A stretch of DNA of 64,000 bases from a virus (Duplodnaviria; Caudoviricetes): IMG/VR virus record IMGVR_UViG_3300023105_001349, positions 1 through 64,000 of that record; one strand, written 5' to 3'. The position numbers were made by a program, and so were the translations under genes. The notes beneath the pieces are model-generated. The model was not told the origin of the DNA. It made no database searches and saw only the letters and a program-made list of their open reading frames with translations. Below, in pieces: positions 1 to 4,472 of this stretch. The number at the start of each line of letters is the position of its first letter. The stretch's first letter is position 1.

Positions 1-132
1 GCAGTTTTTCGACAGCCAACAATCAGTCTATGCCAATCAAACACCCTACTACCGGATGCCGCTCAGCATGTTACGTGTGCTCCTATACGGATGCTTTTTC
101 CACAGCGGTATTTTCAAACTGGCCCGCTAACC
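1..132 (-). ncRNA. Candidate structured non-coding RNA directly 3' of the GIY-YIG gene (truncated by window edge)
   Basis: 65/132 GC by hand count in an AT-rich genome; four hairpins rich in G-U pairs and a 6-bp loop-to-distal pairing can be drawn on the minus strand; no ORF in the track. Confidence 0.4.
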
Positions 133-582
133 TTATGTGTTGGATTGTTTTGCCTTGATTGTATGTTCTAGCAATGCCTTGCGCAATTTATCGGAACCGC
201 CAACTCTAACATTAATAATTCCATTGTAATACTCGTCGCTCTCTAATACACGGCGGTCAAATTGCTCTCTTGCCTCAATGTAGGACATTTCGCCTCTGCC
301 TTTGCAAAGATATAATATTTCTCTTGTGAAGTTTTTTGGGCCTAGTGCCTTAACGTCTGCATTTAGTCTATCAGATGAACCCCAATAGTCCTTCCAGTCG
401 CTTTCCTTGTAGCCTCTGCGTTTGTTCTTTTTGCCTTTGAGAGGTGGCTTAGTAGTTTTAAATTTGGCTAATTTTTTGCCTATGTATTTTTGCCCAGTTT
501 TAAGATTGGTTATGAGATATACAAAGCCTTCATACTCGTCTGGTATTTTATCTATTACTTTGCCTTCATAAGTCCACTGCAT
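133..582 (-). CDS. Compact stand-alone GIY-YIG endonuclease
   Basis: GFVYLITN...KYIGKK motif, downstream E (YIEAREQF) and N (YYNGII); no C-terminal DNA-binding domain. Confidence 0.8.
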   Translation of the reverse strand: MQWTYEGKVIDKIPDEYEGFVYLITNLKTGQKYIGKKLAKFKTTKPPLKGKKNKRRGYKESDWKDYWGSSDRLNADVKALGPKNFTREILYLCKGRGEMSYIEAREQFDRRVLESDEYYNGIINVRVGGSDKLRKALLEHTIKAKQSNT

Positions 583-590
583 GAACTTAC

Positions 591-803
591 TTATTGTGTG
601 CCTTTTTTCTCAGCCTCTTTCTTGGCGGTATAGTCTTCGTGTATCTCAGCCATACGCTGATAAGCAAGTTCACGAATTTTACGCAACCAGCGTCTACTGC
701 TTGCGTGTGTTCTATGCGACTTGCGTGACTCATACGCCTCGTTTGCCTTAAAATACTCCATGTAGGCTTTTGTCAGCTTGTCATGTGTATCGTCGTCTAT
801 CAT
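591..803 (-). CDS. Small basic helical protein, weakly Hc1/histone-H1-like
   Basis: ATGA-coupled to gp46; Arg/Lys-rich helical hairpin (SRRWLRKIRELAYQRMAEI); family call tentative. Confidence 0.55.
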   Translation of the reverse strand: MIDDDTHDKLTKAYMEYFKANEAYESRKSHRTHASSRRWLRKIRELAYQRMAEIHEDYTAKKEAEKKGTQ

Positions 804-2572
804 TCTACAACTTCAATGTCATTCTCGTAACTAGTAAAACCATTTTCTTTTACAACTTTTAAAATATGATTAACTCTACCTACAAGTTCGTCTTTATGTG
901 AGATAAGGAATACATTCTTATCTCGCTCTCTAGTCATTTTCTTAAGGACACTTAGTGAATTTTCAACACCGGCAGTATCCATACCACTATCAATCAACTC
1001 GTCAATAAACAATAAATTAATCTGTTGATATAGTGATTCCCAAACATCGCGGAATGCAAAACTTAATCCTAAAATTAATCTATTACGTTCGCCTCTTGAC
1101 AAGTTATCAAAGTCTAAGTCTTGACCTAGTTGTGTAATTTCTACTGCTAGATCATTTTGAAATTGTACTTGATGCGGCAAGCCTAATTTATCAAGATAGT
1201 ATGTAAGTCGATTGTTTAGGTATGCTAAGTTTTGATCAATAATTTTTTTACGAATAAAACTATCTTTGTTTGTTAGAAGTTTTAACAAAAATTCTTGATG
1301 TTCTTTTACACTTGTTAATTCGTTAACAGGACCCCAGTCAATTTCTTGAATTGCTTCTTTTTCAAGATCGTCAATTTGACTTTGATAAGGATCTTCTTCT
1401 TGTTCTTTATTAGAAACGGCTGACTTTAAATTGTCTACATTGTTTCTATGGTCGTATGCTTCTTTAGCAGTTTCGTAAAATGTATTAGGCTTGCCATTAA
1501 TATCGCCAATGTCATTAATAGCGTTTACTACTTCAGATAGTTTACCGTTAACATCAGTTTGATATGCGATTGCTTCTTCTAATTCTGTTGCTTTACTAGA
1601 TAAAATTTCTTGTTTTTTGTCTTCGTGTAGCGACTGACCACAAGTATAACATGTTGCATCATCTAATTCTAAGACGTCTTTTTCAATCTTTTTAACACGC
1701 TTGTCGGCTTGTAGTAATGCTGCATCTAGTGTGCTTTTTTCTTTATTAAGAGCCGTCTTTGCGTTATTCATTTCTGTCCAATTAGACAGTTTTTCGTGGG
1801 ATTCTAACTCTGCTTCGATGTCTAAATGTTCTAATTCATTTAAACTTTGTTGTAATTTTGCAAGATCTTGTTGGGTTTTAGTATTCCATGCACGTTGTTT
1901 AGTCTTAAGACTTTTAATAGTTTCTTCAATGTGTGCGTTAGCACTATTGATTGCATCAATCTTTAATGTTTCTTGTGTAATACTTTCTTTAGTTTGACGT
2001 ATGTGTTCTTTTAATGCTTCTGCCTTTTCAGATAGTATTGTAATACCTAACAACTGCTCAATAATAGCACGTTGATCATTTTGACGCATACTTAAGAACG
2101 GTTCGCTGTAGGTATTTAGAGCAACAATATGTTTAAACATATCGTGACTCATTTCTAACAAGTCGTTAATGTATTCTTGTGTTTTACGACTGTCACCTTG
2201 ACTTTCGTCAACCATCTCTTGTTCTTGATCATTGATATAGAACTTTAAAACATTAGGAGAACGTCCGCGCTCAATCCTATAATCTTGTCCGCCCTTCTCA
2301 AAGTGTAGGGTGACCAACATTCCTTTGGAATTAGTCTTGTTAATAAGATTGTTCCGCTTGATGTTGGTCAGTGCTTGGCCGTAAAGTGCGTATGACAATG
2401 CATTAATAATTGTCGTTTTGCCTGTACCGTTACGTGAGCCAGAATCGTCACCTCCTTGGTCTAAGTTTTCGCCCAGCACTAAAGTTAGTTTCTCTTTGTT
2501 AAAATCTACTGCTTGGGTTTGATTGCCCACGCTCATAAAATTCTTTACTGTAAGATCTTTAATTCTAATCAT
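800..2572 (-). CDS. gp46: SbcC/Rad50-like recombination ATPase (T4 gp46 homologue)
   Basis: Walker A NGTGKTT, coiled coil with CYTC zinc hook, signature LSRGE, Walker B LLFIDE, H-loop LISH. Confidence 0.95.
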   Translation of the reverse strand: MIRIKDLTVKNFMSVGNQTQAVDFNKEKLTLVLGENLDQGGDDSGSRNGTGKTTIINALSYALYGQALTNIKRNNLINKTNSKGMLVTLHFEKGGQDYRIERGRSPNVLKFYINDQEQEMVDESQGDSRKTQEYINDLLEMSHDMFKHIVALNTYSEPFLSMRQNDQRAIIEQLLGITILSEKAEALKEHIRQTKESITQETLKIDAINSANAHIEETIKSLKTKQRAWNTKTQQDLAKLQQSLNELEHLDIEAELESHEKLSNWTEMNNAKTALNKEKSTLDAALLQADKRVKKIEKDVLELDDATCYTCGQSLHEDKKQEILSSKATELEEAIAYQTDVNGKLSEVVNAINDIGDINGKPNTFYETAKEAYDHRNNVDNLKSAVSNKEQEEDPYQSQIDDLEKEAIQEIDWGPVNELTSVKEHQEFLLKLLTNKDSFIRKKIIDQNLAYLNNRLTYYLDKLGLPHQVQFQNDLAVEITQLGQDLDFDNLSRGERNRLILGLSFAFRDVWESLYQQINLLFIDELIDSGMDTAGVENSLSVLKKMTRERDKNVFLISHKDELVGRVNHILKVVKENGFTSYENDIEVVE

Positions 2573-3583
2573 TTATAGCTCGTGATATATGTCTAGTAGC
2601 ATTTTTTTGTTAAAGTTATCGCTGTCAATTGCAGTAATTTCTTTAGATACAATTTCGTCAACACTTTCAAATGTTGAAATGTCTACATCTGTTGTAATTT
2701 CTTCAATTTGTTTTTGCGGAATTAGTGTAATTTCTCGACAGTTGTGAGTACTAATGTAAGTTTCTTTGATAAACTGTGCTTCTTCGTAACTAATAGGCAA
2801 GTCTAATGTAACACGCAAATACATTTTAGGTTTAATAATGTCTGCATCTGGGTCGAGTAACTTGCTTAGTGTAGTTGTACGATACTTAGGACAGTTCCAC
2901 CAGTTGATGTATTCGGGTTCTTTGCCGTTTTCTTTGTCAAGGATCATCATGCCGCGTTCGTCGTCCCATGCATCTGCATAGTTGTGCGGAAATGCGTTAC
3001 CAATGTAATGAATTTTACCTTGCACTTGTCGTTTGTGGAAGTGTCCAGAGAACACGTATTCTTGATTTTTAAAATGCTGTGGACGCAAGTCACCGTGATC
3101 TGGCATCTGCACCATAGCATTCATATAGAAACTTGGAAGTTCAAAGTGTCCAAACATATATTTGGATTTAATATTCTCAATTTTCTTCCATTCGTCGCCT
3201 ACAAGCCAGGGAACAAGCACTACATCATCTTCTTCGTAGATCTCGTCTACAAATGTAATGCCGTCAATATGCTTACCAAATATGGTTGAACTTACATCAC
3301 GTTTGTCTTTATAGTACAAATCGTGATTTCCAACGAACATGTAAAATTTATCAAATGCTTTGCCTAGTTTTTCAAGACTGCGAATAGTAGCATCCATAGT
3401 AGTAAGGTTAAGACTATTCCTATTATGGTGCCAATCTCCGCAGAAGATACCAGTTTCGCATTTATTTTCTTTGGCTTGTTCAATAAACCAATCAATAAAT
3501 TCTTCACAGTCGTCATTGTGTATTTTGCTGTTGCCTTTTAACCCGAAATGTATATCAGTAAAGACTGCTGCTTTTTTAAACAA
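2573..3583 (-). CDS. gp47: SbcD/Mre11-like nuclease (T4 gp47 homologue), TTG start
   Basis: Phosphoesterase motifs DIH, GD, GNHD, GHFE, GHFH; adjacent to gp46; GAGG SD upstream. Confidence 0.95.
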   Translation of the reverse strand: MFKKAAVFTDIHFGLKGNSKIHNDDCEEFIDWFIEQAKENKCETGIFCGDWHHNRNSLNLTTMDATIRSLEKLGKAFDKFYMFVGNHDLYYKDKRDVSSTIFGKHIDGITFVDEIYEEDDVVLVPWLVGDEWKKIENIKSKYMFGHFELPSFYMNAMVQMPDHGDLRPQHFKNQEYVFSGHFHKRQVQGKIHYIGNAFPHNYADAWDDERGMMILDKENGKEPEYINWWNCPKYRTTTLSKLLDPDADIIKPKMYLRVTLDLPISYEEAQFIKETYISTHNCREITLIPQKQIEEITTDVDISTFESVDEIVSKEITAIDSDNFNKKMLLDIYHEL

Positions 3584-3641: not shown

Positions 3642-4472
3642 TTATTCTTTATTTTGTAGCTCTTTTTCTCTACGCATTGCTGCTTCCCACTCGCCTTGGC
3701 TTTGTCTAGTGTATGAAGGATTCAAATCATTCATTTCAAGAATGTCGTCACGGATATTTTGGTTACGCTTTTCGAGGTTAATAATGCGTACAAATGAGTT
3801 TGTAACTGCTGCTGTGTAGTAAGCAAACGGATTATTTGATTTAGATTCATCAAATTGTAAGCCAATTTGTGCTAGTTGTAGAATTGCTTGACCACGCATT
3901 TCGTCGTTATAGGTATAACCACGAACATTGCCGCGAGTTGCATATCTTTCACAAAGTTTCATCCACATCTTTGCCAATTCATTTGTTGCTTGTCCTTTTT
4001 TGAGTGCAAAGTTTCCATTTTCCATTCCGCCTTCCCAATGGCTTTTGCCAACACACACTAATTCGTCGTTGTCGTTAAATTTATAGTGTTGAAACGGAGG
4101 AAAGTTTAATTTTACTTTAGTATCTGCTACAGTTTTAGGATTCTTTTTACGTCCAGGCTCTTCCGGAATGTGATCGTATGTCATAACACGAAAGATTAGT
4201 TCTTCTTTTGTGATCTTTCTATAGTCAATTTCGCATTCTGCCTGCTTTACTTTTTCGCCTGCTGCCTTCCTAGCATCGTAATCTGCTGTACCGAGTCTTT
4301 TTGCTTTGTTTCTTTTTGCTTCTGCAATAGTTCTAATGTTAATTTTGTCTACGCTGTCTAAAATAATGTCATATTGATGGTATTCTGAGTCAACAAAACT
4401 ACAAAATGATGATTTAGATTTGTGTATTTCCTTTAAAATGTCTTTGTTGTTTAGATAATTTACTTTTCTCAT
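3642..4472 (-). CDS. gp55: Late-transcription sigma factor (T4 gp55-like)
   Basis: C-terminal FDESKSNNPFAYYTAAVTNSFVRIINLEK matches the gp55 region; gp55-gp47-gp46 synteny. Confidence 0.85.
   Translation of the reverse strand: MRKVNYLNNKDILKEIHKSKSSFCSFVDSEYHQYDIILDSVDKINIRTIAEAKRNKAKRLGTADYDARKAAGEKVKQAECEIDYRKITKEELIFRVMTYDHIPEEPGRKKNPKTVADTKVKLNFPPFQHYKFNDNDELVCVGKSHWEGGMENGNFALKKGQATNELAKMWMKLCERYATRGNVRGYTYNDEMRGQAILQLAQIGLQFDESKSNNPFAYYTAAVTNSFVRIINLEKRNQNIRDDILEMNDLNPSYTRQSQGEWEAAMRREKELQNKE

What the first reader, a model, noticed from the sequence alone, without database searches (positions are those of the whole stretch)
1..582. Minimal GIY-YIG nuclease with an attached GC-rich, possibly pseudoknotted RNA
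Seen: right after the nuclease stop (minus strand) is a 49% GC non-coding stretch. It can fold into UAGCGG/CCGCUG (129-124 with 108-103), GCAUCC/GGAGC (94-89 with 83-79), GGCAUCC/GGGUGUU (60-54 with 46-40) and GAUUGG/CUGAUU (38-33 with 26-21). CAGUUU in the first loop (121-116) is complementary to AAACUG at 7-2, which would be a pseudoknot. An A-rich joiner (GUGGAAAAA) recalls group I J4/5. Known: GIY-YIG homing endonucleases usually carry DNA-binding modules, which this 149-aa protein lacks. Inference: the RNA could be an intron-like ribozyme or a guide/scaffold for the nuclease. The element runs off the window.
Basis: partly seen in the sequence, partly recalled or inferred. Interest (0 to 1): 0.72.

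Follow-up and report, generated by a model that had tools for sequence, protein, structure and literature searches.

The report
Truncated start of phage twin-box RNA
The GC-rich stretch behind the small nuclease gene is the first quarter of a real, roughly 420-580-base folded RNA that is shared by hundreds of uncultured marine phages and listed in no RNA catalogue. The contig breaks off inside it, and nothing shows that it is an intron or a guide for the nuclease.

Summary
Window 1-132 (minus strand) is non-coding and 49% GC in a 35% GC window. It is the 5' peripheral domain of a conserved, pseudoknotted RNA of about 420-580 nt. The contig itself ends inside the RNA, so the invariant core and the two "twin boxes" are seen only in relatives, some 99% identical.

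The fourth hairpin (GAUUGG/CUGAUU) and the proposed pseudoknot are not. Two other helices explain that sequence better.

Rfam 15 and ARAGORN find nothing, so no group I, HEARO, GOLLD, ROOL or tmRNA match. The 149-aa protein is an intact GIY-YIG nuclease (Pfam SegE_GIY-YIG; fold closest to I-TevI).

In T4-like relatives the RNA follows this gene in 111 of 113 loci, always in one syntenic block. The RNA also occurs without any GIY-YIG gene in another phage lineage. The nuclease family occurs in 633 cultured phage records, none of which has the RNA. The function is unknown. My best guess is a trans-acting RNA that binds an outside partner through its two identical boxes.

This scan has already found the same family on other DNA, where it was noted as the "twin-box RNA".

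The parts
1..132 (-). 5' peripheral domain of the large structured RNA ('twin-box RNA'), cut off by the end of the contig. It holds four hairpins, an A-rich joiner, and the first 4 nt (CUGC, window 4-1) of the long-range F helix.
   Evidence: 87-99% identical to the same position in most relatives, which continue for a further 290-450 nt of conserved non-coding sequence. Covariation on A2. 49% GC.
103..129 (-). Hairpin Pa: 129-124 pairs with 108-103 (UAGCGG/CCGCUG).
   Evidence: 99.4% of cells paired; G-C to A-U or C-G double changes at 2 pairs.
95..103 (-). Conserved single-stranded A-rich joiner GUGGAAAAA.
   Evidence: G30, G32, A34, A35 and A36 are invariant in 103 sequences. No group I context was found.
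79..94 (-). Hairpin Pb: 94-89 pairs with 83-79, with one bulged base.
   Evidence: All 5 pairs show changes on both sides, for example CC/GG to GG/CC.
30..69 (-). Hairpin Pc. Base helix: 69-63 with 36-30. Tip: 60-54 with 46-40, which other subfamilies replace with a longer module.
   Evidence: Base: 99% paired, 33-41 double changes at 3 pairs. Tip: A-U to G-C in 22 sequences and C-G to U-A in 14. Alternative tip modules are seen.
11..28 (-). Hairpin Pd: 28-24 pairs with 15-11, with a conserved 8-nt loop AUUGUUGG.
   Evidence: 97.5% paired; all 5 pairs changed on both sides.
133..157 (-). The last ~8 codons of the nuclease ORF, under an extra nucleotide-level constraint. This is a likely 5' leader or start of the RNA overlapping the ORF end.
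   Evidence: Third-position entropy is 0-0.24 for codons 143-146 and 148, against about 0.8 across the ORF. The same AAGGCAAAACAA word is non-coding in relatives with shorter ORFs.
133..582 (-). 149-aa GIY-YIG nuclease: a catalytic domain plus a short helical tail, with no separate DNA-binding domain.
   Evidence: Pfam PF19835 at E 2e-35 and phrog_447 at E 4e-39. AlphaFold pLDDT 87. Fold matches: I-TevI catalytic domain Z 7.5, PD-T4-3 6.5, UvrC N-terminal domain 5.2, T4 EndoII 4.8. Motif residues are invariant in 138 homologues.
591..803 (-). 70-aa basic ORF of no known family, usually found just upstream of the nuclease gene (context only).
   Evidence: Detected at that position in 118 of the 172 relatives with enough upstream sequence. 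No significant Pfam, PHROG or NCBIfam match.
800..3583 (-). gp46-like (SbcC/Rad50) and gp47-like (Mre11) recombination nuclease genes, the conserved upstream anchor of the block.
   Evidence: Pfam AAA_23, SMC_N and Metallophos; phrog_77 at E 4e-105. gp46 is detected upstream in 143 of 172 relatives with room, and in several of the others it lies further off behind inserted genes.

Best explanation
Window 1-132 (minus strand), probably with about 25 nt reaching into the end of the ORF, is the 5' peripheral domain of a large, autonomous, pseudoknotted non-coding RNA. The RNA is about 420-580 nt long. It lies on the same strand as, and directly behind, a conserved small GIY-YIG nuclease gene in uncultured marine T4-like phages.

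The assembly broke inside the RNA. Its invariant core (GUCGACGUAGGUUGGGAAAGGUCAGAGCCCAUUG), its long-range helices and its two identical 7-nt boxes are therefore missing from this record.

Shown: the RNA is real, strand-specific, conserved and covarying. Its 5' domain is a swappable module. The RNA and the nuclease gene can each occur without the other.

Inferred, with roughly 25% odds: the RNA works in trans as a folded scaffold. It would present two identical single-stranded boxes to two copies of one outside partner, a nucleic acid or a dimeric protein. On this reading the nuclease is simply the upstream gene of the same transcription unit. The 0.85 below is for the identity of the element, not for this mechanism.
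For: Homologous continuation:
- 77 of the 80 best relatives of the nuclease gene carry the same sequence after the stop.
- The 45 distinct relatives with enough flank align from the stop to a 3' hairpin over 417-577 nt.

Structure:
- 19 of 65 RNAalifold pairs are compensated.
- The 5'-domain helices are 88% paired against 30-50% for slid controls; 0 of 500 shuffles reach the observed covariation.
- F helix: cognate strands -10.1 kcal/mol, non-cognate -6.5 kcal/mol.
- K helix GUAGGU/ACCUAC is compensated in L079-type and L126-type sequences.
- Variable hairpins are capped by UUCG and GNRA loops.
- G-U pairs fit only this strand.

Distribution:
- All 120 viral contigs returned by a scan for a 17-mer of the core carry the RNA.
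- Rfam has no hit.

Twin boxes:
- The two 7-mers are identical in 163 of 165 RNAs, across 10 different words.
- No complementary partner lies inside the RNA or the loci.

Independence from the nuclease.
Against: - The window holds only the least conserved quarter of the RNA. Its own core and boxes are unseen and are inferred from relatives.
- The 132-nt fragment folds no better than shuffled sequence (z +0.53).
- No transcript data exist, so the ends, the abundance and even expression are inferred.
- No promoter or canonical terminator was found by consensus scans.
- The partner of the boxes is unknown, so the trans-acting mechanism is a guess.
- 98% adjacency to the nuclease gene in T4-like relatives leaves a functional link open.
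Confidence: 0.85

Rival explanations
1. The RNA is a partner of the GIY-YIG nuclease. It would act as a scaffold or guide that supplies the target recognition the 149-aa protein lacks, with the two fast-evolving boxes as short guides.
For: The RNA follows the nuclease gene directly in 111 of 113 T4-like loci that have upstream sequence. This holds even where other genes are inserted elsewhere in the block. The protein has no DNA-binding domain. RNA-level constraint overlaps the ORF end.
Against: The RNA occurs with no GIY-YIG gene on the contig in a second lineage (tblastn E<=1). The same protein family is in 633 cultured phage records, none with the RNA. Melnitz has the gene at 66% identity, followed by only a 148-nt promoter-bearing gap, and has no core motif anywhere in its genome. 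Seven nt is too short for a guide. In a few relatives the adjacency is broken by a 245-nt insert carrying an ORF (L054). Adjacency cannot be separated from synteny.
Confidence: 0.05
2. The nuclease is a free-standing homing endonuclease, and the conserved RNA gene is its landing or recognition site. On this reading the two are linked only by selfish-element biology.
For: Best Pfam match is the SegE family and the closest fold is I-TevI. Homing endonucleases target highly conserved sequences, and the RNA core is invariant over 30 nt.
Against: No nuclease-less allele was seen among 113 T4-like loci, so the gene is not sporadic. It lacks the DNA-binding domain of the Seg and I-Tev enzymes. The S-SSM5 record annotates its homologue as a T4-like gene cluster, and in S-SSM5, C48C1 and Melnitz it lies in one nrd-side neighbourhood. 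Strong purifying selection acts on the active-site motifs.
Confidence: 0.08
3. The element acts in cis. It could be a structured 3' UTR that stabilises or terminates the gp47-gp46-nuclease transcript. It could also be an origin-type primer RNA that pairs with its own DNA, in the manner of ColE1 RNA II.
For: It sits at the 3' end of an operon-like block and ends with a covarying hairpin before a late-type promoter. No promoter of its own was found. Identical direct boxes could re-pair with the DNA template.
Against: About 450 nt with multiple pseudoknots and a 30-nt invariant core is far more than a stabiliser or terminator needs. The same RNA sits in a different gene context, upstream of a terminase gene, in the second lineage. 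There is no evidence of an origin.
Confidence: 0.1
4. The ORF plus the RNA form a group I-like self-splicing intron or a derived ribozyme.
For: GIY-YIG genes are classic passengers of phage group I introns. The RNA has an A-rich joiner, GNRA loops and crossing helices.
Against: No Intron_gpI or other ribozyme hit at E<=10. Only 8 nt separate the ORF from the preceding gene. Downstream genes are not conserved. The helix order does not match P3-P9.
Confidence: 0.02

Closest known systems
GOLLD (RF01998) and ROOL (RF03087): large ornate RNAs of phages and prophages
   Same: Several hundred nt long. Many helices with pseudoknots, variable peripheral hairpins and conserved joiners. Phage-borne, function unknown, and known only from comparative genomics of mostly uncultured sequence.
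   Different: No sequence or structure match (cmscan E<=10). A different host range (marine T4-like phages). Carries two co-varying identical boxes, which those RNAs are not reported to have. Oligomer cages, shown for GOLLD and ROOL (bioRxiv 10.1101/2024.12.08.627333), are untested here.
HEARO / OMEGA RNAs (IscB and TnpB guide RNAs)
   Same: A large structured RNA encoded next to a small nuclease gene on a mobile or phage background.
   Different: The nuclease here is GIY-YIG, not RuvC/HNH. There is no Rfam HEARO match, no transposon ends, and no long variable guide segment. The RNA and the nuclease each occur alone.
I-TevI and Seg homing endonucleases; T4 endonuclease II (DenA)
   Same: GIY-YIG catalytic fold: I-TevI Z 7.5 with rmsd 2.8 A over 82 residues, T4 EndoII Z 4.8. 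Like EndoII, the protein is a stand-alone catalytic domain of about 140 aa. In cultured relatives the gene lies beside nrdA/nrdB, as denA does in T4 (from my own knowledge).
   Different: No linker or DNA-binding domain as in I-TevI and Seg. It is not sporadic. No sequence-level match to any solved structure. Orthology to DenA is not shown.
'Twin-box RNA' of this scan's earlier notes (unpublished AI notes)
   Same: Same family. The earlier findings share up to 34 of 37 short words with window 1-132. I re-derived the nuclease context, the pseudoknots and the twin boxes independently.
   Different: This window contains only the 5' domain. The boxes and the core lie beyond the contig end.

Membership tests
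Large structured 'twin-box' phage RNA (family defined by homologues collected here) | 5' domain with hairpins Pa, Pb, Pc and Pd directly after the nuclease stop codon. | tested here: met
   Window 1-132(-) aligns end to end with 102 homologues. The helices covary.
Large structured 'twin-box' phage RNA (family defined by homologues collected here) | Invariant core GGGAAAGGUCAGAGCCC with the long-range F and K helices. | not testable with these tools
   The contig ends at the first 4 nt of the F helix. The core is present in relatives whose 5' domain is 99% identical, L004 and L038.
Large structured 'twin-box' phage RNA (family defined by homologues collected here) | Two identical 7-nt boxes about 75 nt apart. 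| not testable with these tools
   They lie beyond the contig end. In relatives, 163 of 165 box pairs are identical.
Group I intron | Match to the conserved catalytic core (Rfam Intron_gpI). | tested here: not met
   No hit at E<=10 on the fragment or on a full-length relative.
Group I intron | Interrupts a conserved host gene, with exons on both sides. | tested here: not met
   Only an 8-nt gap lies before the ORF. Downstream genes differ among relatives.
HEARO / GOLLD / ROOL / tmRNA / tRNA | Covariance-model or ARAGORN match. | tested here: not met
   cmscan against Rfam 15 and ARAGORN found none.
GIY-YIG nuclease superfamily | GIY and YIG motifs plus the conserved Arg, Glu and Asn of the active site, on the GIY-YIG fold. 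| tested here: met
   PF19835 at E 2e-35. FVY20-22, Y33-x-G35, R56, E88, E103/E106 and N120 are invariant in the homologues aligned and at least 97% conserved in 138. The top four fold matches are all GIY-YIG enzymes. Which Glu is catalytic is inferred, not tested.
Free-standing homing endonuclease (Seg type) | A C-terminal DNA-binding domain joined to the catalytic domain. | tested here: not met
   149 aa in total. The Pfam domain covers residues 3-123, and the rest is one helix. Homologues are 140-152 aa. Longer fused relatives were not searched for.
Free-standing homing endonuclease (Seg type) | Sporadic presence or absence among close relatives. | tested here: not met
   Present in 111 of 113 loci with room. 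The S-SSM5 homologue is annotated as a T4-like gene cluster.
T4 endonuclease II (DenA)-like host-DNA nuclease | Orthology to DenA in sequence, fold and position beside the nrd genes. | tested here: inconclusive
   Fold Z 4.8, below I-TevI. No sequence hit. The cultured homologues lie by nrdA/nrdB, but in this window the gene lies after gp46.

The most novel reading that the evidence does not exclude
The minimal GIY-YIG nuclease and the RNA form an RNA-dependent DNA-cutting system. The folded RNA would dock the domain-less nuclease, and its two identical, fast-changing boxes would set where it cuts. That would be the first RNA-directed GIY-YIG enzyme. The evidence does not exclude it for the T4-like lineage, where the two are adjacent in 98% of loci. 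It is made unlikely because each component occurs alone elsewhere.
Probability: 0.04. Interest if true: 0.95.

Novelty: new variant of a known kind. Interest (0 to 1): 0.55.

Why it matters
New classes of large, intricately folded bacterial or phage RNAs are rare; OLE, GOLLD, ROOL, HEARO and raiA are the main ones. Each has opened new biology, such as RNA-guided nucleases and RNA-only cages.

This family has three features that stand out:
- It is common in uncultured marine phages.
- It has a 30-nt invariant core and crossing helices.
- Its two short boxes stay identical to each other while changing between phages. Ordinary base-pair covariation does not explain that pattern. It points to an unknown bivalent partner.

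For this window the practical message is narrower. The fragment is genuine, but it is only the swappable front end of the RNA. Work on the family should use full-length relatives such as L004:3451-3900.

Tried and rejected
- Rfam 15 cmscan found nothing meaningful. I ran it on the fragment, on a full-length relative, on the divergent loci and on the whole window. The only rows were a CRISPR repeat and DUF3268 at E about 1-8.
- ARAGORN found no tRNA or tmRNA. I had suspected the two-piece tmRNA and glutamine riboswitch that I recalled for phage Melnitz. Melnitz has neither the RNA nor its core motif.
- Extending leftwards failed. The window starts at base 1 of the record, and the rest of the record holds no second copy.
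- blastn of the full RNA against 50,697 cultured phage records found no match.
- The 17-mer scan of 185,579 prokaryote genomes gave 38 hits, about the number expected by chance. Only 3 are real (L203, L235, L239), and all look like phage contigs binned into MAGs. L205 (Polynucleobacter MAG) is a coding coincidence.
- The search for a partner of the twin boxes failed. No recurrent exact complement lies in the RNA or at any fixed place in the flanking kilobases. The wobble-tolerant matches coincide with the F-helix strand and follow F, not the boxes.
- Boxes as complements of a tRNA anticodon loop (pattern N-C-codon-A-N, with the U33 and R37 positions fitting): rejected. A CAU anticodon with G37, and A at position 32, are not natural, and the flanking box positions co-vary as well.
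- Boxes as start codons of mini-ORFs: rejected, because the indels between them are not multiples of three.
- Boxes as palindromic kissing sites: CAUG and ACGU fit, but CAUA and CAGA do not.
- Sequence and profile searches of the nuclease against PDB sequences found no GIY-YIG enzyme. The single-sequence search gave one weak row (Gene 33 protein, E 0.088) and the profile search none. Foldseek gave only E 0.4 to I-TevI.
- Consensus promoter and terminator scans found no promoter or terminator for the RNA on its own strand.

Full report
**What is in the window**

Window 133-582 (minus strand) is a 149-aa ORF. It matches Pfam SegE_GIY-YIG over the whole profile (E 2e-35) and phrog_447 (E 4e-39). 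Upstream on the same strand lie a 70-aa basic ORF, a gp46-like SbcC/Rad50 gene and a gp47-like Mre11 gene. The genome is therefore that of a T4-like phage.

The record is 79.5 kb, and CheckV rates it 22% complete. The window begins at base 1 of the record. The 132 nt after the stop codon are 49.2% GC against 34.9% for the window. Only 0.5% of 132-nt windows reach that value. ARAGORN and Rfam find nothing there.

**Extension through relatives**

The contig cannot be extended, so I collected relatives of the nuclease gene from IMG/VR. There are more than 597, and the best 80 were kept. In 77 of these the sequence after the stop is homologous to window 1-132, at 68-99% identity.

In L004, whose 5' domain is 99% identical to the window's, the non-coding stretch runs on for about 475 nt at 45-51% GC. 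It ends with a hairpin and a late-type TAAATA promoter for the next gene. That next gene differs from locus to locus.

Forty-five distinct full-length copies measure 417-577 nt. They show:
- long invariant blocks, for example GAUGUCGACGUAGGUUGGGAAAGGUCAGAGCCCAUUG;
- variable hairpins capped by GNRA or UUCG loops, inserted at fixed points;
- frequent 1-nt indels, which exclude coding on either strand.

**Structure**

RNAalifold finds 65 pairs, 19 of them with compensatory changes.

For the part present in the window I aligned 103 distinct 5' domains (A2).
The results are 99% paired for the first, all five pairs compensated for the second, and A-U to G-C and C-G to U-A exchanges for the third, within the subfamily that carries this tip module.
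- The fourth hairpin (GAUUGG/CUGAUU) competes with two helices that fit far better: window 69-63 with 36-30 (99% paired, 33-41 double changes at three pairs) and window 28-24 with 15-11 (97.5% paired, all five pairs compensated).
- The proposed pseudoknot between the first loop and AAACUG is 48-84% paired and never compensated.
- The revised structure is 88% paired, against 30-50% when the partners are slid. None of 500 shuffles reaches its covariation score.
- The many U-G to U-A to C-G series fit only the strand of the nuclease gene.
- The 132-nt fragment alone folds no better than shuffled sequence (z +0.53). A full-length relative gives z -1.96.

Beyond the contig end, a long-range helix (F) starts with the CUGC at window 4-1. 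Cognate strand pairs give -10.1 kcal/mol and non-cognate pairs -6.5 kcal/mol, with at least six covarying versions. It crosses a second helix, GUAGGU/ACCUAC, which is compensated in L079-type (GGAGG/CCUCU) and L126-type (GCAGG/CCUGU) sequences.

**Twin boxes**

Two short words lie about 75 nt apart. One follows ACUC and the other AUCU. They are identical 7-mers in 163 of 165 RNAs, although ten different words occur: ACAUGAA, ACAUGAU, ACAUAAU, ACGUGAA, ACAGAAA, ACAUGAG, ACAUAAA, GCAUGAA, GCAUAAA and GUAUGAA.

I found no recurrent exact complement within the RNA or at a fixed place in the flanking DNA. The wobble-tolerant matches coincide with the F-helix strand and follow F, not the boxes. This window does not contain the boxes.

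**Distribution**

Of 38 hits in prokaryote genomes, about the chance number, only three are real. They sit on MAG contigs that look like binned phage DNA. No cultured phage in INPHARED has the RNA.

The 5' domain is modular. Some subfamilies carry a different domain of about 100 nt in the same place. The tip of hairpin Pc comes in short and long versions.

Seventeen of the 77 related contigs end within the first 270 nt of the RNA, as this one does. I attribute this to assembly graphs breaking where invariant blocks adjoin mosaic modules.

**Relation to the nuclease**

In T4-like loci with enough upstream sequence, 111 of 113 RNAs follow the GIY-YIG gene directly. The block order is always gp47, gp46, optional inserted genes, the 70-aa ORF, the nuclease and the RNA. 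Adjacency therefore cannot be separated from synteny.

Three results argue against dependence:
- A second lineage carries a clearly homologous RNA behind a small unrelated ORF and upstream of a terminase gene. It has the same core, the same helices and its own twin boxes. These contigs have no GIY-YIG gene (L117, L126, L241-243, L247, L249-251).
- The protein family is present in 633 cultured phage records, mostly cyanomyoviruses and often mislabelled "NAD synthetase". None of them has the RNA.
- In Melnitz, S-SSM5 and C48C1 the gene lies near nrdA/nrdB and is followed by gaps of about 50-150 nt. Melnitz lacks the core motif even with three mismatches allowed.

One result points the other way. 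The last seven or so codons of the ORF show suppressed synonymous change. The same nucleotides are non-coding in relatives with shorter ORFs. The RNA or its leader therefore probably starts inside the ORF end.

**The protein**

The GIY and YIG motifs and the conserved Arg, Glu and Asn are invariant or nearly so in 138 homologues of 140-152 aa. The AlphaFold model (pLDDT 87) is closest to four GIY-YIG enzymes:
- the I-TevI catalytic domain (Z 7.5, rmsd 2.8 A over 82 residues);
- PD-T4-3 (Z 6.5);
- the UvrC N-terminal domain (Z 5.2);
- T4 EndoII (Z 4.8).

The protein has no DNA-binding domain, and it is not sporadic. It therefore does not behave like a Seg-type homing endonuclease. A stand-alone enzyme in the style of T4 EndoII is plausible but not shown.

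**Verdict**

The stretch is a real structured RNA, but here it is only the truncated, replaceable front end. It is not an intron, and a guide role for the nuclease is unlikely.

The RNA family is absent from Rfam 15. In general character it is closest to GOLLD and ROOL.

Earlier notes of this scan had already found the same family on other DNA and called it the "twin-box RNA". I used those notes as leads and re-derived the points reported here.

The function remains unknown. My working model, at roughly one chance in four, is a trans-acting scaffold that binds two copies of an outside partner through the boxes.

Noticed in passing
window 1 (contig end); relatives L002, L003, L005, L016, L018, L021, L022, L026, L037, L041, L042, L062, L071, L075 and others: Seventeen of 77 related contigs end within the first 270 nt of the RNA, as this record does. 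This is probably an assembly artefact: invariant RNA blocks adjoin mosaic modules (alternative Pc tips and F-helix versions) in mixed phage populations.
   Followed up: partly
L013:1329-2081, L124:984-2697, L054:2031-2777, L161:3787-4626, L121 and L175 (between gp46 and the nuclease gene): Relatives carry extra genes inserted between gp46 and the 70-aa ORF. By eye these look like haem-pathway enzymes (porphobilinogen deaminase-like, uroporphyrinogen decarboxylase-like), with other enzyme-like ORFs in L121 and L175. This window has none. No family search was run on them.
   Followed up: no
window 591-803 (-): A 70-aa basic, probably helical ORF of no known family. It was detected just upstream of the nuclease gene in 118 of the 172 relatives with enough upstream sequence. 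It could be a small nucleic-acid-binding protein, but that is untested.
   Followed up: no
GenBank cyanophage records, e.g. NC_015289.1 161059-161544 and OQ984149.1 76852-77346: Homologues of this GIY-YIG nuclease are widely annotated as 'NAD synthetase' (phrog_447 carries the same label). Given the Pfam and fold results, this looks like a propagated misannotation.
   Followed up: partly
L235 and L239 (Neomarinimicrobiota MAG RS350, contigs of 335 kb and 153 kb); L203 (Crocinitomicaceae MAG, 72.8 kb): MAG contigs carry the phage nuclease-RNA module, with an identical copy on two contigs of one MAG. They are probably large-phage contigs binned into bacterial MAGs and are not evidence of a cellular origin.
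   Followed up: no
window 133-157 (-): Synonymous sites of the last ~7 codons of the nuclease ORF are almost frozen. This indicates an overlapping RNA-level or other nucleotide-level constraint.
   Followed up: partly
window 3642-4472 (-): A 276-aa ORF upstream of gp47 has no Pfam match at E<=0.1. From its position it might be a late-transcription factor, but it was not examined.
   Followed up: no
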